Shown one piece after another: positions 14,772 to 61,659 of a stretch of 61,990 bases of DNA. The stretch's first letter is position 1. Every line of letters begins with the position of its first letter. The position numbers were made by a program, and so were the translations under genes. Below the pieces are notes generated by a model that was given only the letters and a program-made list of their open reading frames with translations, made no database searches and had not been told where the DNA came from. Where the stretch lies: the UHGV virus genome UHGV-0106586, one strand, 5' to 3'. Source of the DNA: a virus.

Positions 14772-14924
14772 TTTAACTTATCTCTCAACTCACAATAAGA
14801 GAGTCCTAAAAAGAACCCCAGTAAGACAGAACCTATGAACAGGCCAATGATGCTCTCTGCCATATCTAACATCCAATAAAAAGGTGATGTAAGCCTATCA
14901 AGACTCACACCACCTTGTCAAGTT

Positions 14925-15872
14925 TTACATAGAAATCCTGTCACGAATCTCAGCAATTTTTGCATCATTCATTCGGGATTCACCTTTAATCTTAGTCCAC
15001 CCAAGATACCCACACACTCTGTTAATCACAGAGATGTCATGTGAATGGCAAACCTCACATTCTTCAACATCAGCCTTTGGTCTGTTGCCACAATGTTCGC
15101 AGATTGCTAAGTCAAAGTTAAGTCCCTGATAGAAACCTTTCAACATCCCTCTTGTAATACAACTTTTAAGTGCTGTTAAGTTTTCTGGGTTAGCTACCCT
15201 TACATACTGGATTCTGCCGCCTCTACAGATATGGAAGAATGGTTCTTCTAAGTCCTGCTTCTCAAATGGTGAAATATCTGCTGCAACATTCATATGGAAA
15301 CTGTTTGTAAAGTATTCCTTATCAGAAACACCTTTGATAACGCCAAACATATCTCTGAACTGTTTTAGTTGAGTCCCACAAAGTGATTCTGCTGGAGTAC
15401 CATAGACGGCATATAAGAAGCCATCTTCATTCTTAAACTCTTCAGTTTTCATGTTAATGTATGCCAGAACATCGTATGCAAAACTATAGCTTCCAACTTC
15501 ATGAAGTCGTTTACCCTCAGCAAGAACAGACAACTCATCAAGAGCAGTAACCCCAAAAGAAGCTGTGAAGGACTTCACGATATCCCAACCAACCTTGTCA
15601 GTAGGTTTCTTAGTCCCTTTGTACAGACCACCTTGTGTGAATGCAAGAGGGTTAGAACTTGCTGGCATATTAGCAATCATTTCGTAGCGTTTCTTGTGGA
15701 AGCTGCGAATCATCTCTAGGTACTTATCAAGCTCTTTCCAGAAATCTAAACCATTCTCTTTAGAATACTGGTAAATCATTGGCAAGTTCAAAGATACAGC
15801 ACCAATGTTAGCACGACCTACATAAAACTCTTCACCATCTTCGTTATGATATGGTGATAAAAACGCTCTACA
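14925..15872 (-). CDS. nrdD: anaerobic ribonucleoside-triphosphate reductase, C-terminal exon (inferred exon 2)
   Basis: RVCGYLG glycyl-radical motif and CEHCG...C zinc-ribbon near C-terminus; open frame extends upstream of any start codon to 15893. Confidence 0.7.
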   Translation of the reverse strand, partial: CRAFLSPYHNEDGEEFYVGRANIGAVSLNLPMIYQYSKENGLDFWKELDKYLEMIRSFHKKRYEMIANMPASSNPLAFTQGGLYKGTKKPTDKVGWDIVKSFTASFGVTALDELSVLAEGKRLHEVGSYSFAYDVLAYINMKTEEFKNEDGFLYAVYGTPAESLCGTQLKQFRDMFGVIKGVSDKEYFTNSFHMNVAADISPFEKQDLEEPFFHICRGGRIQYVRVANPENLTALKSCITRGMLKGFYQGLNFDLAICEHCGNRPKADVEECEVCHSHDISVINRVCGYLGWTKIKGESRMNDAKIAEIRDRISM

Positions 15873-16614
15873 CTTATTGTTCAGGTAAGTTCGCTACGCT
15901 TACCCCGCTTTATTCAAGCTGCTTACTGTCACCAGTAAGTCCAGACTATATCTTCTACTTATTTCTAAGTAGCGTACCATTTCGAGTCGCTTGACCCTAC
16001 ACCGCTACATTCATCACGGTTAGTCGTTCGGCATTTAAATGTACTCAAAATCATGTTCAAAGTTATTATACTCTTTTACACCCTTCAATATTGAAGAGAT
16101 AGTCTTGCGATTATACCCAAGTACATTAGATAACTCTCGTATTGACTTAGCAACAATAACTTCTTTTGTCACTTTATGTGTAGCCTTCACAGCATATGAA
16201 CGCTTACAAAACTTGTAGCAACCATTTTCATAACCCTCTTTAACATTCTCAGAATGAGTTCCCCATTCTAAGTTAGAAGCATGGTTGTTCAGTTTGTTAT
16301 CATCTTTGTGTTTTACAATTGGAAGATTGTTAGGGTTAGGTACATACTTTTCAGCAACTAACCTATGGACATACATGTCACGATTCTTCCTTCCATAAAA
16401 CCTTACTTTCATATAACCAGTGTTGGATTTCCACTGCGTAAGTTCTACACCATTTTTCCTAAAGACTCTTCCGTCCTCAGTAACATGATAATTTGGCATG
16501 TAATACTCCTATTTTATATAGTTTCTTACATCGTACATCATTTAGCACAGGATTGTCTACACCTGTAGAGTTTCCCTGTTTAGGCACGTTTTAGATGAGC
16601 TATAGAGCTTGTTA
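15873..16614 (-). mobile_element. probable group I intron interrupting nrdD (boundaries inferred), carrying an HNH homing endonuclease ORF
   Basis: nrdD frame broken by stop right after ...ISPMG and resumes at CRAFLSP...; inferred intron ends in G; possible P1 guide GCUCAU near its 5' end; 7-bp stem with GTGA tetraloop in 3' part. Confidence 0.5.
16035..16499 (-). CDS. HNH homing endonuclease (intron-encoded)
   Basis: VHRLVAEKY...VKHKDDNKLNNHASNLEWGTHSEN is a classic HNH motif. Confidence 0.75.
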   Translation of the reverse strand: MPNYHVTEDGRVFRKNGVELTQWKSNTGYMKVRFYGRKNRDMYVHRLVAEKYVPNPNNLPIVKHKDDNKLNNHASNLEWGTHSENVKEGYENGCYKFCKRSYAVKATHKVTKEVIVAKSIRELSNVLGYNRKTISSILKGVKEYNNFEHDFEYI

Positions 16615-17811
16615 ACCCATCGGTGAAATTACCTTGCCAGAACGCTCAAAAGCTTCTGCTACAGCACCATGACCAGATACACTTAAGAAATCTGGATACA
16701 TTGCTTTAGAGCAACACTCAATAGCTTTACTGTACAGGTGTCCTTGACAGATATTTTCATCATGTCTCTTCTGGTCATAAATATAAACCAGTTTAGGAAA
16801 TACAACAGGTTTTTTGCTCTTACCTTGTCCATTCATACGAACATCTAGGAGAGTGCTTGCAATCATGTACTGTAGTCGGTTATCTTCATTAGACATGTCT
16901 GAGTCAAGTAAACCAAATGTTAAAGTTGTGAATGCAAAATCACCACGGCTACAGGGTACTGTATTTAGTTTCATCTCTAGTGACTGGAAGCCTTGAGTTA
17001 ATTCAATCTGTAGCTGCTCCATGACATAATTATGGTAATGTTCTTTAGGAATACCGTAAGATGCTGCTTTCTCAGCATGATAGCGTAGAGACTTCTTAGC
17101 ATACGGTACAAGCACCTTATCAATCTCCGCTAAAGTAAATCCACCAAATTGCTGTGCAGTTGCTGAAAGAACTACATCACCGATAACTTGTAAGGCTGAC
17201 AGTACAGACTTCGGTTCACAGTATTCGATGCCAGACATTTCAAAGCCACCTTTCAGTACTTTACCAATGTCAAACAGGCAACAGTTGATACCACCAAAAA
17301 TTAGGTCTCTTAAGTCATGGATGTAGATAAACCCTTTTTCAATGGCTTCGAGTTCCTCTGGTGTTAAATGGTACTGCTTAAAGATTTCTTTAGTCAGATA
17401 ACCACGAATAATTGAACCTTTTGTAGAAATTAAACTGCTGTCAAAGTTAGCGTTTTCACGGTCGCCTAAGAAGAGTGTATCTTTGGTCTTCTGGTATAGT
17501 TCATCCCAATTTTGAGCAACTTCTTTACGGTAATTTCTATATGTTGAGTAAGACTCATAAATCTCGTGATTGACTTCTGCCAAAGCACCCTCAACAATAC
17601 TGTGAATATCGTTTACAGAAATTAGCAAATTATTCTGCTTAGTGGACTTTACCAGAATCCTCATAAATGCTGACTCAAGAGCTTGAGTAACATCTGGTGG
17701 AAGCTCTTTATAACCAACTCTGTTAGCTGACTTTGTGACGGCTGCTAAAACTTTTTTGATATCGGGTTCTTCAAGTGAGCCGTTCTTTTTAATAATCTGT
17801 ACTTTGTTCAT
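16615..17811 (-). CDS. nrdD: anaerobic ribonucleoside-triphosphate reductase, N-terminal exon (inferred exon 1)
   Basis: N-terminal ATP-cone-like region (IIKKNGSLEEPDIKKV), class III RNR-like body; frame ends ...KVISPMG then stop. Confidence 0.75.
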
Positions 17812-17830: not shown

Positions 17831-17856
17831 AAAAAGGTCTCCGAAGAGACCCTTTC
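17831..17856 (-). terminator. rho-independent terminator (ggtctc-cgaa-gagacc)
   Basis: Hairpin 17836-17851 with flanking A-run. Confidence 0.5.
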
Positions 17857-29999: not shown

Positions 30000-30821
30000 T
30001 TATAAAGACTTAGTGCAGTTGGTCACTGGTAATCTGTGAGTGCTCTTTTCAGCCATAGCTGAGACTTGCTTCACAAAATCATCACCGAAGTTAATACGCA
30101 GCTTCTCTTCAATGATTGAAGCCCCAATGTTTACCAAAACATCATTGATTGCTTGCATACTGACACCACCAGTCATCTCCTCAACGAACTCAATGGTTAC
30201 CCCCAACATCTGAGAAAGTTGGATTAGTGCAAAGATATTCATCATTGTAGAGATAGCTGGAATCATCAGAGCAACCTTCACCTGTAGTGGCTCTACATCA
30301 GCTACAGAGTCATCTTTCACAGCTTCTGCTAAAGAGTCTTTAGTTTGCTGGATAATCTCTTTGATTCGTGGGTTTAATTCTTCTACGCCCCAATCAAGTT
30401 TTTCATATCGTGAAAGTTTCTCTTCCATACGCTTCTCAAGAACAGCCATAACAGCACTCGTTGATGAGATAAGCGTATCAATAATGAAATCAGTGTCCTT
30501 AGTCAGCAACAGTTCCTTATCTTCGTCTGACATTCTGATATAGTCATTCTTTTGTATTTCATAAAAAATGAACTCTGCAAGAGCATCAACACCTACAACA
30601 ATAGATGCTAAGGCAAGCTTTTTGTCACACAGCATCATGTTAACCTGTTCTGCAAAAGCACCGTTATCAGACTTGTCTTCAGGCAAGTTATAGCTTGCAG
30701 GCATAAACTGTTCTGTGTAGTTGTTACCACGAAGAATCATAGCCATGCTTTCTACGGCATTGATTAAGAATGCTTCATCAACACCTTTCTCTTCAAGCAT
30801 CTTTTCTACATCGATATTCAT
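30000..30821 (-). CDS. hypothetical protein (273 aa)
   Basis: ORF in track. Confidence 0.45.
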   Translation of the reverse strand: MNIDVEKMLEEKGVDEAFLINAVESMAMILRGNNYTEQFMPASYNLPEDKSDNGAFAEQVNMMLCDKKLALASIVVGVDALAEFIFYEIQKNDYIRMSDEDKELLLTKDTDFIIDTLISSTSAVMAVLEKRMEEKLSRYEKLDWGVEELNPRIKEIIQQTKDSLAEAVKDDSVADVEPLQVKVALMIPAISTMMNIFALIQLSQMLGVTIEFVEEMTGGVSMQAINDVLVNIGASIIEEKLRINFGDDFVKQVSAMAEKSTHRLPVTNCTKSL

Positions 30822-59284: not shown

Positions 59285-60237
59285 TAGTTAATAAAGACCT
59301 GACATAAACTTGTCGATAGGTCTGATTAAAGTTTATACAGTGATTTTTCATCTTCTAATTTTTTTATAAAAATCGTAGTAGCCTCTCTACATTCCCCTTC
59401 ACCGATAATCTTCAAAAATATCTACACAGTTGATTCGGTAGAATCTACCTCATGATTGATGGCTGTTAAGTACCCCAGATTCACGATATAGCACCCCCTT
59501 TGCAAAAGCAGTTAAAATATCTATAACCAATTATTGACTTTCTTTATAGCATCTGTTAACTCCACATCAAGAAACCTTTATCACACTTCAAAGCATCTAT
59601 CAAGAAGATTTCACCTATCAATAGATGTAACATTTTATAGTTCTGTGAAGTCCTATCCAGTTTTCTCTGTAACAGACACAAACTTCTGTGACCTTATGTA
59701 TCAATGACTTACAAGACATGCTCTCAAGGTGCTGTATAGCCTCTTATCTTCAAATACACAAAACCCTTATAAATCAGTACTGATACGTATACAGTTCGTT
59801 TTTAACATAATAGCTGTTTTACGCACTAATCGTGTTCTACATGAAATCTGTATAGATATTAAGGTGTCTGTAAGTGATTTTTTAAGAGGAGCTACGAAGA
59901 ACTATAACCATCACCTCCTAACTTTCACATGGGAAACTGTTAAGCAGCTTGATAGTCACTTTGAGGGAATATTGATAGTGACCAACTGCATAGATAGCGT
60001 TATATAGTCCTGTATATAGCACTTTTCTAGGAGTCGAGAGAGGGACGACTAACACGATACAGTTTACCCTGAAAAGAGACTTCACAGATTCTTTATATAT
60101 TTCAATAAGTTATGCTAAAAAGGGACTATATCAATACTGCATAGAATCTGTGTAAAACTGCTTAGATAGTGCATAAATACACCGTTGAATTGCATAATCA
60201 TTCACTGATATTGTCCTGTTATTAACAGGTATGTTCT

Positions 60238-60316
60238 CATAGTTGATTCGGATGTTCTAGGAATCATCCTCATAGTTGATTCGGATGTTCTAGGAATCAT
60301 CCTCATAGTTGATTTA
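60238..60316. repeat. 33-bp tandem direct repeat (catagttgattcggatgttctaggaatcatcct), 2.4 copies, with internal dyad symmetry; ~85 bp upstream of the recombinase-like gene
   Basis: Copies at 60238-60270, 60271-60303 and a partial copy at 60304-60316; related sequence at 59429-59464. Confidence 0.7.
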
Positions 60317-60399
60317 GACCTTGATGATTTTTATTAGACACGTTTAAATACACTACCTAAAGCGATACAATCTAGGTATCAGTTTTGAGGTGGTAAACA

Positions 60400-61659
60400 A
60401 TGAAACGTGTCATTTCATACATTCGTTTCTCATCAGAGAAGCAAGCTAAAGGCGACTCACTCCGCAGACAATCTAAGATGGTCACTGATTGGCTTAAGGC
60501 TCATCCTGAGTACTACCTTGACCAAGATTTATCTTTTCGTGATTTAGGTGTGAGTGGATTCACTGGTAAGCACTTGAAAGGTGGCTTAGGTGACTTCTTA
60601 ACCGCTATCGAGAAAGGGCTTGTTAAAGCTGGTATCAAAGTTTCTAAACGTTGTCCTGCATGGCTTAAGCTTAATGATGACCGTAAAAGCTTCTCTGTGA
60701 TACCTGAGAAAGTGGAGACTGTGAAGAGGTGCTTTCAGCTACGGTTAGAGGGTAAGTCTATCTGGGAGATTGTCAGAACTCTTAATGCTGAAGGTCACCA
60801 GACGCTTAACCAGTACAAAGCAGGTAAGTTTGGTCAAACATCTGTTCAAGACCTTTTGAAGAATCGCTCTGTAATTGGTTACTTCACACCTAAAGGCTGT
60901 GAGGAGATTGCAGGTTATTACCCGTCTGTAATTGATGAAACAACATTCTACAAAGTTCAACAACTATCACATTCTCGTTACGGTAGAAAACCTGCTTCAG
61001 ATAAACCATTGAGTGTGAATCTCTTTAAAGGTGTTATCCGTTGTTCTGAATGTGGTCATGCTTTGATTATCACAGGCTTTAGCGATACAAGAAACGGGAT
61101 TTATCGTTGTCCTCTTCGTAATGAAAACCGTTGTAGTGCTAAAGGACTTTCACGTAAGCAAACCGATGGTACATTGCTTGCCCTGCTATCTCGTCTTGAC
61201 CGATTTGATAGCGATATGACGAATACCATAGACACACTGAAGCTACACCGTGAACACATCTCAAGCAATATTGAAAAGCTGGTACAGCTATCACTTGAAA
61301 TTGAAGACTTGTCCGCTATTACCAGCAAACTAAGACAACTAAAGAATGAGCTATCACAAGTTGATGCGGATATCGAGAAGGAGACACAACGCCTTAAATC
61401 TATTGATGTGGGTTGTTTGTCTGATTGTGACTTGACTACAAAGGCGGGAAGGATTGAAGCACAACTGATAATCAAAAGTGCTGTTAAAGAGGTCGTTTTA
61501 AATACTGCTAAACGTCGCTGTAAAGTAACTTTTCACAACGGTAAAGCAATCACCTTACCAATAACAGAAAACCCCTCAGACAACGTTACAGAGGCTATAC
61601 AGTCGCTTTCTGAAGTCACTGAGAGGGGTTTAATAGATGTTGATGAGGTTATCATATAG
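60400..61659 (+). CDS. serine-recombinase-like protein (resolvase-type N-terminal motifs, recombinase domain, zinc ribbon) with apparently truncated catalytic domain
   Basis: YIRFSSEKQ and DLGVSG motifs; recombinase-domain-like middle; CSECGH...YRCPLRNENRC zinc ribbon; no DRLxR-type motif found by eye. Confidence 0.6.
   Translation: MKRVISYIRFSSEKQAKGDSLRRQSKMVTDWLKAHPEYYLDQDLSFRDLGVSGFTGKHLKGGLGDFLTAIEKGLVKAGIKVSKRCPAWLKLNDDRKSFSVIPEKVETVKRCFQLRLEGKSIWEIVRTLNAEGHQTLNQYKAGKFGQTSVQDLLKNRSVIGYFTPKGCEEIAGYYPSVIDETTFYKVQQLSHSRYGRKPASDKPLSVNLFKGVIRCSECGHALIITGFSDTRNGIYRCPLRNENRCSAKGLSRKQTDGTLLALLSRLDRFDSDMTNTIDTLKLHREHISSNIEKLVQLSLEIEDLSAITSKLRQLKNELSQVDADIEKETQRLKSIDVGCLSDCDLTTKAGRIEAQLIIKSAVKEVVLNTAKRRCKVTFHNGKAITLPITENPSDNVTEAIQSLSEVTERGLIDVDEVII

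What the first reader, a model, noticed from the sequence alone, without database searches (positions are those of the whole stretch)
14925..17811. nrdD split by a ~740-nt intervening sequence encoding an HNH endonuclease: probable self-splicing group I intron
The N-terminal NrdD frame stops right after ...KVISPMG at 16615. The C-terminal part (RVCGY glycyl-radical motif) is open upstream of any start codon back to 15893, and joining 16615 to 15872 gives a continuous ...ISPMG-CRAFLSP... protein. The intervening 15873-16614 holds a complete HNH endonuclease ORF, ends in G on the coding strand, has a candidate guide GCUCAU able to pair with the exon 1 end AUGGGU, and a 7-bp stem with GTGA tetraloop. 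T4-like phages are known to carry group I introns in RNR genes.
Basis: partly seen in the sequence, partly recalled or inferred. Interest (0 to 1): 0.65.

Follow-up and report, generated by a model that had tools for sequence, protein, structure and literature searches.

The report
Self-splicing intron splitting phage nrdD
The anaerobic ribonucleotide reductase gene of this Felix O1-like phage is interrupted by an ordinary mobile group I intron carrying its own HNH homing endonuclease, a textbook kind of phage element that some database records already annotate as spliced.

Summary
On the minus strand, nrdD exon 1 (17811-16615) ends ...ATG GGT. A 742-nt insert (16614-15873) starts with an in-frame TAA and ends in G. 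Exon 2 (15872-14925) starts TGT AGA. Joining the exons gives a 714-aa NrdD with an intact PMG|CRAFL motif.

The insert is a group I intron of the T4 td/sunY type (IA2-like, with P7.1/P7.2 and no P2). All helices P1-P10 can be placed, in the same order and spacing as in the T4 td intron. Covariation across seven related phage introns is strong.

Rfam's group I model scores the window copy at only 38.6 bits (cut-off 50), because a 465-nt ORF sits in loop L6a. Natural ORF-deleted alleles of the same intron score 56-60 bits. T4 td with its ORF scores 40.3.

The ORF is an I-HmuI-like HNH endonuclease. Felixounavirus genomes show all three stages of the homing cycle:
- intron with endonuclease gene (about 61 records);
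- intron without it (about 32 records);
- intronless, lacking exactly 742 nt.

A ~55-nt exon-2 haplotype travels with the intron.

The window is a Felixounavirus, not a T4-like phage. The element is a known kind, and two GenBank records already join the exons. Interest is low.

The parts
16615..17811 (-). nrdD exon 1 (399 codons: ATP-cone plus the N-terminal half of NrdD); its last nucleotide is U (16615)
   Evidence: ORF list and sequence; Pfam ATP-cone and NRDD profile positions 1-250
15873..16614 (-). Group I intron, 742 nt. It begins with a UAA stop in frame with exon 1 and ends with the terminal G (omega-G) at 15873
   Evidence: Exactly these 742 nt are absent from intronless alleles; Rfam RF00028 hits; helix map
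14925..15872 (-). nrdD exon 2 (315 codons plus stop). It starts with UGU, the Cys400 codon, and contains the RVCGY glycyl-radical motif
   Evidence: Pfam NRDD profile positions 264-560 and Gly_radical; continuous alignment to solved NrdD structures
16035..16499 (-). HNH homing endonuclease gene (154 aa) in loop L6a of the intron; its last 10 nt overlap the 3' strand of P6a
   Evidence: Pfam HNH_3 at 40.2 bits against a cut-off of 24.8; PHROG 59 at 3e-43; I-HmuI PDB 1U3E at E=8e-10
16506..16510 (-). Shine-Dalgarno AGGAG, 6 nt upstream of the endonuclease AUG
   Evidence: Sequence
16595..16607 (-). Internal guide sequence CUCUAUA|GCUCAU. GCUCAU (16600-16595) pairs with the exon 1 end AUGGGU (P1, 6 bp, U-G wobble at the splice site). 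CUCUAUA (16607-16601) pairs with the exon 2 start UGUAGAG (P10, 7 bp)
   Evidence: The same GCUCAU(G) guide is present in the T4 nrdD, HMD-6 and F96 introns
16548..16588 (-). P3 5' strand CGUGCC (16588-16583), J3/4 UAAA, and the P4-P5 domain (CAGGG / UCUAC-AGGU-GUAGA / UCCUG)
   Evidence: Rfam partial hit over model positions 60-138; (P3 100% of cells paired; P4 91%)
16533..16546 (-). 5' strands of P6 (GC) and P6a (GAUGUAC)
   Evidence: unconstrained fold of the ORF-less allele
16031..16044 (-). 3' strands of P6a (GUACAUU) and P6 (GC)
16022..16027 (-). P7 5' strand A(C)GACU, with a bulged C and a G-C pair at the position of the guanosine-binding pair
   Evidence: Invariant in all 7 introns compared
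15984..16019 (-). P7.1 (CCGU...GCGG) and P7.2 (GGGUC-AAGC-GACUC), the extra hairpins typical of subgroup IA
15973..15978 (-). P3 3' strand GGUACG
   Evidence: 4 of 6 pairs show changes on both sides; 100% of cells paired
15955..15972 (-). P8 hairpin CUACUU-AGAAAU-AAGUAG
15943..15954 (-). J8/7 AAGAUAU plus the P7 3' strand AGUCU (hallmark motif GAUAUAGUC)
15884..15939 (-). P9 (7 bp with a GUGA tetraloop, 15939-15922), P9.1 (15919-15907) and P9.2 (15904-15884)
14881..14916 (-). Terminator-like hairpin followed by a T-run, just after the nrdD stop codon
   Evidence: a terminator is annotated at the same place in phages Meda and wV8

Best explanation
The 742 nt at 16614-15873 (minus strand) are a mobile group I intron of the T4 td/sunY type (IA2-like: P7.1 and P7.2 present, P2 absent). 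It sits in the nrdD gene of a Felixounavirus, immediately 5' of the catalytic-loop cysteine codon (PMG|CRAFL). An I-HmuI-like HNH homing endonuclease gene lies in loop L6a.

**Splicing mechanism (inferred from the family).**
- Ribosomes translating exon 1 stop at the in-frame UAA that forms the first three intron nucleotides.
- The RNA folds. Its guide GCUCAU pairs with the exon end AUGGGU to form P1, with a U-G wobble at the splice site.
- Free guanosine bound at the P7 G-C pair attacks after U16615.
- The terminal G15873 then enters the same site.
- P10 (CUCUAUA with UGUAGAG) aligns exon 2, and the exons are ligated.
- The product is an mRNA for a 714-aa NrdD.

**Mobility mechanism (inferred).** The HNH protein is translated from its own AGGAG ribosome-binding site. 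In a mixed infection it nicks or cuts an intronless nrdD near the insertion site. Repair from the intron-bearing genome copies the intron together with about 55 nt of flanking exon 2.

**Shown here:** the boundaries, the restored reading frame, the ribozyme architecture with covariation, the endonuclease family, the presence/absence polymorphism, and the linked exon haplotype.

**Inferred:** catalysis, endonuclease activity and its target.
For: 1. **Boundaries.** Intronless alleles lack exactly these 742 nt (2145 against 2887 bp).
2. **Spliced product.** It aligns gap-free across the junction to solved NrdD structures and to T4-type NrdD, SPMGCRSFLS against SPMGCRAFLS.
3. **Rfam RF00028.** The window copy scores 38.6 bits, E=4e-8, plus a collinear 17.7-bit hit. 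HEG-less alleles with a near-identical core score 56.1 and 60.4 bits, above the cut-off of 50, over model positions 1-253. T4 td with its ORF scores 40.3.
4. **Element order.** All helices occur in td order with near-identical junction lengths. An unconstrained fold of the HEG-less allele recovers P3, P4, P5, P6, P6a, P7.1, P7.2, P8, P9 and P9.2, with P9.1 in the centroid structure.
5. **Covariation over 7 introns.** 92.8% of cells are paired, against 35-41% when partners are slid. 36 of 62 pairs change on both sides. 0 of 500 shuffles reach the observed values. P7 is invariant (hand count).
6. **Splice-site signals.** U at the 5' splice site, terminal G, a 6-bp P1 and a 7-bp P10 from one contiguous guide.
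7. **Endonuclease.** Pfam HNH_3, PHROG 59, and PDB 1U3E I-HmuI at E=8e-10 with the H...N...N motif aligned. Synonymous changes outnumber non-synonymous ones, 20:7 and 31:10 codons.
8. **Mobility signatures.**
   - About 61 records carry the intron with the HEG and about 32 carry it with the HEG deleted, by at least two independent deletions that spare the core.
   - All intron carriers share one exon-2 haplotype that differs from that of five of the six intronless Felixounavirus-type alleles compared.
   - The intron is 99.5% identical to that of SP116, while the exons come to about 95% by arithmetic.
9. **Same site elsewhere.** The same MG|C site holds a related intron and HNH (48% and 39% identity) in an rV5-like phage and a Vibrio phage.
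10. **Prior recognition.** GenBank records MH586731 and MZ501086 already join the two exons.
Against: - No experimental splicing data exist for this intron.
- The window copy itself is below Rfam's gathering score (38.6 against 50). T4 td behaves the same way.
- P7 and most of P7.1 are invariant across the compared introns, so they carry no covariation evidence.
- Most GenBank records annotate two separate NrdD fragments.
- The structure used in the covariation test was derived from the window sequence. That inflates 'cells paired' somewhat, but not the counts of double changes.
Confidence: 0.93

Rival explanations
1. Genes in pieces. A free-standing HNH endonuclease gene has split nrdD into two separately translated polypeptides that assemble after translation, as described for Aeromonas phage Aeh1 nrdA split by mobE.
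For: Most database records annotate two NrdD fragments with an HNH gene between them. Exon 1 ends at a stop codon.
Against: - The exon 2 frame has no ATG/GTG/TTG between the upstream TAG (15896-15894) and the TTG at 15791. An independent product would lack the first 27 residues, including the catalytic-loop Cys.
- About 277 nt of non-coding flanks fold into a complete group I core with covariation.
- That core is retained, and passes Rfam's cut-off, in alleles that have lost the HNH gene.
Confidence: 0.02
2. A decayed intron. The element was a group I intron but no longer splices, or splices poorly, so nrdD in this phage is a pseudogene.
For: Splicing was not tested. The window copy scores below Rfam's cut-off. 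Phages also carry the aerobic nrdAB genes, so NrdD might be dispensable.
Against: - The core outside the ORF is 97.5-97.8% identical between carriers, while the ORF is 91-94% identical.
- Of the 13 core differences seen, only two fall in helices. One keeps the pair (U-A to U-G) and one touches the end pair of P6a.
- Both exons and nrdG are intact.
- HEG-less derivatives keep every core helix.
Confidence: 0.04
3. An intein or other in-frame protein-level insertion.
For: Inteins with endonuclease domains are common in ribonucleotide reductase genes, often at catalytic sites.
Against: The insert starts with an in-frame TAA, and the HNH ORF is a separate gene with its own ribosome-binding site and start and stop codons. 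No Pfam intein domain was reported for the three proteins scanned.
Confidence: 0

Closest known systems
Phage T4 td group I intron (subgroup IA2, encodes I-TevI)
   Same: - Same order of helices and nearly the same junction lengths.
- About 71% identity over the 3' core.
- The intron starts with an in-frame UAA.
- The ORF sits in loop L6a.
- P7.1/P7.2, P9 with a GUGA loop, P9.1, P9.2 and a UGAACAnnAnG tail are all present.
   Different: - The host gene is nrdD, not td.
- There is no P2.
- The endonuclease is HNH (I-HmuI-like), not GIY-YIG.
Phage T4 nrdD (sunY) group I intron (encodes I-TevII)
   Same: - Same host gene.
- No P2.
- Same guide GCUCAU followed by UAAAAC.
- A block covering P6', P7 and P7.1 is 40/41 nt identical.
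   Different: - Different insertion site: about codon 180, against codon 399/400 here.
- The T4 ORF lies 3' of P9 and encodes a GIY-YIG enzyme.
- P7.2 and P8 differ.
nrdD introns of rV5-like coliphage HMD-6 and Vibrio phage F96
   Same: Identical insertion site (MG|C), the same architecture, and an HNH gene in L6a that is 48% and 39% identical.
   Different: Different phage lineages. Helix sequences have diverged with compensatory changes. These introns are unannotated in those records.
I-HmuI (Bacillus phage SPO1 DNA polymerase intron; PDB 1U3E)
   Same: The HNH_3-type catalytic motif and the N-terminal region align at E=8e-10 over residues 3-115. Both are encoded inside phage group I introns.
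   Different: Different intron, host gene and presumably target. Whether the enzyme here nicks one strand like I-HmuI or makes a double-strand break like I-TevIII is unknown.

Membership tests
Group I intron (Rfam RF00028) | The 5' exon ends in U, which forms a U-G wobble with the internal guide (P1) | tested here: met
   AUGGGU (16620-16615) pairs with GCUCAU (16600-16595) over 6 bp, with U16615 opposite G16600
Group I intron (Rfam RF00028) | The intron ends in G, and P10 can form between the guide and the 3' exon | tested here: met
   G at 15873. CUCUAUA (16607-16601) pairs with UGUAGAG (15872-15866) over 7 bp and lies contiguous with the P1 guide
Group I intron (Rfam RF00028) | Conserved core P3-P8 with the P3/P7 pseudoknot, J8/7, and P7 with a bulged nucleotide next to a G-C pair | tested here: met
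   All elements lie in td order. Cells paired: P3 100%, P4 91%, P8 95%. P7 is invariant. 36 of 62 pairs show double changes. The unconstrained fold recovers the helices
Group I intron (Rfam RF00028) | Covariance-model score at or above the curated gathering score (50 bits) | tested here: inconclusive
   The window copy scores 38.6 bits (E=4e-8), below the cut-off. ORF-deleted alleles of the same intron score 56.1 and 60.4 bits. T4 td with its ORF scores 40.3. The shortfall therefore tracks the ORF in L6a
Group I intron (Rfam RF00028) | Removal restores an uninterrupted host gene, and intron-free alleles exist | tested here: met
   Intronless alleles are exactly 742 nt shorter. The spliced protein is collinear with solved NrdD structures
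Group I intron (Rfam RF00028) | Guanosine-dependent self-splicing | not testable with these tools
   Needs in vitro transcription with GTP labelling, or RT-PCR
Subgroup IA (td-like, IA2) | Extra hairpins P7.1 and P7.2 between the P7 5' strand and the P3 3' strand | tested here: met
   P7.1 at 16019-16002 and P7.2 at 15997-15984. P7.2 covaries in the hand alignment, 5 of 5 positions
HNH homing endonuclease, I-HmuI-like (Pfam PF13392 HNH_3) | Profile match above the curated cut-off, with the H...N...N catalytic motif intact | tested here: met
   HNH_3 scores 40.2 bits against a cut-off of 24.8. The motif H64, N76, N85 (vkHkDdNklNNhasNLewgThseN) aligns to I-HmuI
HNH homing endonuclease, I-HmuI-like (Pfam PF13392 HNH_3) | Site-specific nicking or cleavage of the intronless allele near the insertion site | not testable with these tools
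   Indirect evidence only: the presence/absence polymorphism and the linked exon-2 haplotype
Split gene ('genes in pieces') with a free-standing endonuclease | Independent translation start for the downstream fragment, and no ribozyme in the spacer | tested here: not met
   There is no start codon before 15791, which lies 27 codons past the junction. The spacer holds a complete group I core
Intein | In-frame insertion translated together with the host protein | tested here: not met
   An in-frame TAA forms the first three nucleotides of the insert

The most novel reading that the evidence does not exclude
The nrdD 'MG|C' intron and its HNH gene are one mobile unit that has crossed between unrelated phage lineages (Felixounavirus, rV5-like coliphages, Vibrio phages). 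It also swaps ribozyme modules with the T4 introns.

The evidence consistent with this:
- A block covering P6', P7 and P7.1 is 40/41 nt identical to the T4 nrdD intron, inside an otherwise ~70% similar, td-like intron.
- The T4 nrdD intron shares the same guide GCUCAU although it sits at a different nrdD site, whose exon end is AUGAGU.

This would point to site-hopping by reverse splicing or illegitimate homing, plus intron-intron recombination during co-infection.
Probability: 0.3. Interest if true: 0.35.

Novelty: already known. Interest (0 to 1): 0.2.

Why it matters
The main value is for annotation. Most Felixounavirus records, and the rV5-like and Vibrio phage records examined, list nrdD as two fragments with an HNH gene between them. 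The correct product is a single 714-aa NrdD made from a spliced mRNA.

The genus also offers a tidy natural series of the homing cycle:
- intron with endonuclease gene;
- intron with the endonuclease gene deleted, at least twice independently;
- intronless;
- one possible precise loss.

The intron carries a linked co-conversion tract and sits one codon before the catalytic-loop cysteine. This would make a convenient system for studying intron spread among therapeutic-type Salmonella and E. coli phages. It does not change any concept.

Tried and rejected
- **Rfam at gathering thresholds, whole window.** No hit. The intron appears only in E-value mode. This is explained by the ORF in L6a.
- **My first translation.** It was in the wrong frame and was discarded. 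The frame was read from the sequence and the ORF list instead.
- **An alternative short P1.** GGGU could pair with the first GCUC at intron positions 7-10. I rejected it in favour of GCUCAU at positions 15-20. That version gives 6 bp plus a contiguous 7-bp P10, and the same guide is conserved in the T4 nrdD, HMD-6 and F96 introns.
- **A hairpin hiding the endonuclease ribosome-binding site or AUG, as in the T4 introns (PMC2988022).** A hairpin exists, but it is weak and not better than shuffles: -6.8 kcal/mol, z = -1.3. I make no claim.
- **Other copies of the hallmark GAYATAGTC.** The matches at 30537 (+) and 60124 (-) have no group I context and no Rfam hit, and three matches is within chance.
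- **Literature search for a description of this intron.** Nothing was found for Felixounavirus together with 'group I intron'.
  - The Felix O1 genome paper reports no introns in Felix O1 itself (PMC3185647). That fits, because the closely related Felix O1 isolate FO1a examined here is intronless.
  - The SPJ41 paper mentions two 'introns' among predicted ncRNAs without detail (PMC9951933). SPJ41 carries the HEG-less allele (H85).
- **MAFFT alignment of the trimmed cores (A2).** It mis-registers P7.2 in three sequences, so the tool's figure for that helix (80% of cells paired) is conservative. The hand alignment gives 100%.
- **Confirming from a paper that the junction Cys is T4 Cys290.** The search found nothing. 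That identification rests on my own knowledge plus the alignment.
Full report
**What is in the sequence**

All of the following is on the minus strand.

- An ORF runs from 17811 to 16612. It encodes 399 aa ending ...KVISPMG and then TAA. Pfam assigns it an ATP-cone and positions 1-250 of the 562-position NRDD profile.
- A second frame is open from 15893 to the stop at 14925. It matches NRDD positions 264-560 plus the glycyl-radical domain. It has no ATG/GTG/TTG before the TTG at 15791.
- Joining 16615 to 15872 gives a 714-aa protein that reads ...ISPMG|CRAFLSPYHNEDGEEF....
- That protein aligns without a gap across the junction to solved class III reductases (9d3x E=2.6e-77; T4 NrdD 1h78 E=3.2e-75). 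It also aligns to a T4-type NrdD, SPMGCRSFLS against SPMGCRAFLS.
- The 742 nt in between hold a 154-aa ORF (16499-16035) with a Pfam HNH_3 domain.

**Where the window comes from**

The region is 94-97% identical to many Felix O1-like phages: genus Felixounavirus, ~87-kb myoviruses of Salmonella and E. coli. It is not a T4-like phage. The neighbours are nrdA, nrdB and a glutaredoxin upstream, and nrdG downstream, all intact.

**Independent proof of the boundaries**

Related genomes show three allele states.

- **Full length, 2887 bp.** About 61 records cover at least 80% of the 742-nt insert.
- **Intron kept, HNH gene deleted.** The estimate is about 32 records: 93 records cover at least 80% of the whole region, minus the 61 above. 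BPSELC-1 has an in-frame 426-nt deletion that leaves a 316-nt intron. RPN213 has a different 450-nt deletion that leaves 292 nt.
- **Intronless, 2145 bp.** These alleles are exactly 742 nt shorter and read ...CCGATGGGT|TGCAGAGC.... Examples are wV8, the Felix O1 isolate FO1a, SapYZU01, C600M2 and finno.

The one-nucleotide ambiguity (T on both sides of the junction) is settled by the group I rules. The exon must end in U and the intron must end in G.

**It is a group I ribozyme**

*Rfam.* The gathering-threshold scan is silent. The permissive scan gives two collinear minus-strand hits to RF00028. One is 16102-15922 at 38.6 bits, E=4e-8, containing P8, the hallmark GAAGAUAUAGUCU and P9. The other is 16579-16505 at 17.7 bits, covering P4-P6. 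It is the only hit in the window at E up to 0.05.

*The score shortfall tracks the ORF.*
- The natural ORF-deleted alleles score 56.1 and 60.4 bits over the full model, above the 50-bit cut-off.
- The experimentally established T4 td intron, with its ORF in place, scores 40.3 bits.

*Helix map (coordinates).*
- P1: AUGGGU with GCUCAU.
- P10: CUCUAUA with UGUAGAG. This strand is contiguous with the P1 guide.
- P3: CGUGCC with GGUACG.
- P4: CAGGG with UCCUG.
- P5, P6 and P6a. The ORF lies in loop L6a.
- P7: A(C)GACU with AGUCU.
- P7.1, P7.2 and P8.
- J8/7: AAGAUAU.
- P9: 7 bp with a GUGA loop.
- P9.1 and P9.2.
- Tail UGAACAAUAAG, ending in the terminal G.
- There is no P2.

*Comparison with other introns.* The elements occur in the same order, and with almost the same junction lengths, as in T4 td. 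An unconstrained MFE fold of the 316-nt natural allele recovers P3 to P9.2; P9.1 appears only in the centroid structure.

*Covariation.* I aligned the trimmed cores of seven introns: window, T4 td, T4-type nrdD, HMD-6, Vibrio F96, phiKZ-like OMKO1 and Vibrio S4-7.
- The structure pairs 92.8% of cells. With partners slid by one to three columns the figure is 35-41%.
- 36 of 62 pairs show changes on both sides.
- No shuffle of 500 reaches any observed measure.
- P7 is invariant, so it is uninformative.
- A hand alignment gives the same picture. For example, 5 of 6 positions in P3 and 5 of 7 in P9 are compensated relative to the window.

**Relation to the T4 introns**

- The 3' core is about 71% identical to td.
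- The 5' end resembles the T4 nrdD (sunY) intron: no P2, and the same guide GCUCAU followed by UAAAAC.
- A 41-nt block covering P6', P7 and P7.1 (16037-15997) is 40/41 identical to the T4-type nrdD intron.
- The T4 nrdD intron nevertheless lies at about codon 180, not at this site.
- The same MG|C site is occupied by a related intron in the rV5-like phage HMD-6 and in Vibrio phage F96.
- The cysteine right after the junction aligns with the Cys of the T4 PMGCRSFL motif. From my own knowledge, not verified in a paper here, that is the thiyl-radical Cys290 on the finger loop. Insertion at such a site is typical of homing elements.

**The endonuclease**

- The ORF matches HNH_3 (40.2 bits) and PHROG 59 'HNH endonuclease' (3e-43).
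- Among solved structures it matches I-HmuI, the intron-encoded HNH nickase of Bacillus phage SPO1 (1U3E, E=8e-10). The H...N...N motif aligns.
- It is 48% identical to the HNH protein in the HMD-6 intron and 39% identical to the one in the F96 intron.
- Between Felixounavirus carriers, codon changes are mostly synonymous: 20:7 and 31:10. The gene is therefore under purifying selection.
- It has an AGGAG 6 nt before the AUG.
- A hairpin over the start codon, of the kind that regulates the T4 endonucleases (PMC2988022), is only weak here and not significant.

**Signs of mobility**

- Besides the three allele states, every intron carrier, with or without the HNH gene, shares the exon-2 haplotype TGTAGAGCRTTTTTATCACCATA....
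- Five of the six intronless Felixounavirus-type alleles compared carry TGYAGAGCYTTCTTRTCTCC.... The last 60 nt of exon 1 show no such split.
- The TGT of the carriers completes P10. The TGC found in most intronless alleles would break one pair.
- One intronless phage, pEC-M719-6WT.1, has the carrier haplotype except for TGC. It is a candidate precise loss.
- The intron is 99.5% identical to that of SP116, while the whole region is 96.2% identical. That puts the exons at about 95% (arithmetic), as expected for recent lateral spread.
- The non-coding core is more conserved than the ORF: 97.5-97.8% against 91-94%.
- Of the 13 core differences, only two touch helices. One keeps the pair.

**Rivals**

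- *Genes in pieces.* This fails because the downstream fragment has no start codon before the catalytic Cys codon, and because the spacer is a complete ribozyme that is retained after loss of the HNH gene.
- *Intein.* This is excluded by the in-frame TAA at the start of the insert.
- *Decayed, non-splicing intron.* This cannot be excluded without RNA data, but it is unlikely given the conservation pattern.

**Novelty**

This is a standard mobile group I intron with an HNH homing endonuclease in a phage ribonucleotide reductase gene.
- Near-identical copies are in dozens of public genomes.
- Two records (Meda MH586731 and JohannRWettstein MZ501086) already annotate nrdD as a joined CDS with the nested endonuclease gene.
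- I found no paper that describes it.
- The Felix O1 paper correctly reports no introns for that intronless strain.
- Splicing and endonuclease activity remain untested.

Noticed in passing
window 15997-16037 (minus strand): A 41-nt block covering P6', P7 and P7.1 is 40/41 identical to the T4-type nrdD (sunY) intron, while the rest of the intron is only about 70% like the T4 introns. This suggests module exchange between phage introns.
   Followed up: partly
L006 2412-2440 (T4-type nrdD intron) compared with window 16595-16620: The T4 nrdD intron sits at a different codon (about 180) but uses the same guide GCUCAU, and its 5' exon ends AUGAGU against AUGGGU here. This is compatible with an intron having moved between two nrdD sites that share AUGRGU.
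   Followed up: no
L016 (Escherichia phage pEC-M719-6WT.1 nrdD): An intronless allele that carries the intron-associated exon-2 haplotype except for TGC in place of TGT. It is a candidate precise intron loss, or the ancestral donor haplotype.
   Followed up: no
L004 (BPSELC-1) and L005 (RPN213), intron region: Two different deletions remove the HNH gene: a 426-nt in-frame deletion that leaves a 12-codon mini-ORF, and a 450-nt deletion between short TGTAA-containing repeats. Both keep the last ~33 nt of the ORF, which include the 3' strand of P6a.
   Followed up: partly
L010 (Vibrio phage F96 nrdD region): nrdD is broken by two separate HNH-containing insertions. The second is at the same MG|C site as here. 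None is annotated as an intron.
   Followed up: partly
window 60233-60317: A 33-nt unit (CTCATAGTTGATTCGGATGTTCTAGGAATCATC) is repeated in tandem, two exact copies plus partial ones. It lies at the end of a ~3-kb stretch (57.4-60.4 kb) that has only short ORFs, just upstream of the 419-aa ORF that starts at 60400 (+). It could be an iteron or regulatory array.
   Followed up: partly
window 1-61990: ARAGORN finds no tRNA genes in the window, although Felix O1 is reported to have 22 (PMC3185647). The tRNA cluster must lie outside this window.
   Followed up: no
window 17836-17851 and 14881-14916: Terminator-like hairpins bracket nrdD. Terminators are annotated at the same places in phages wV8 and Meda, so nrdD may be transcribed as its own unit.
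   Followed up: no
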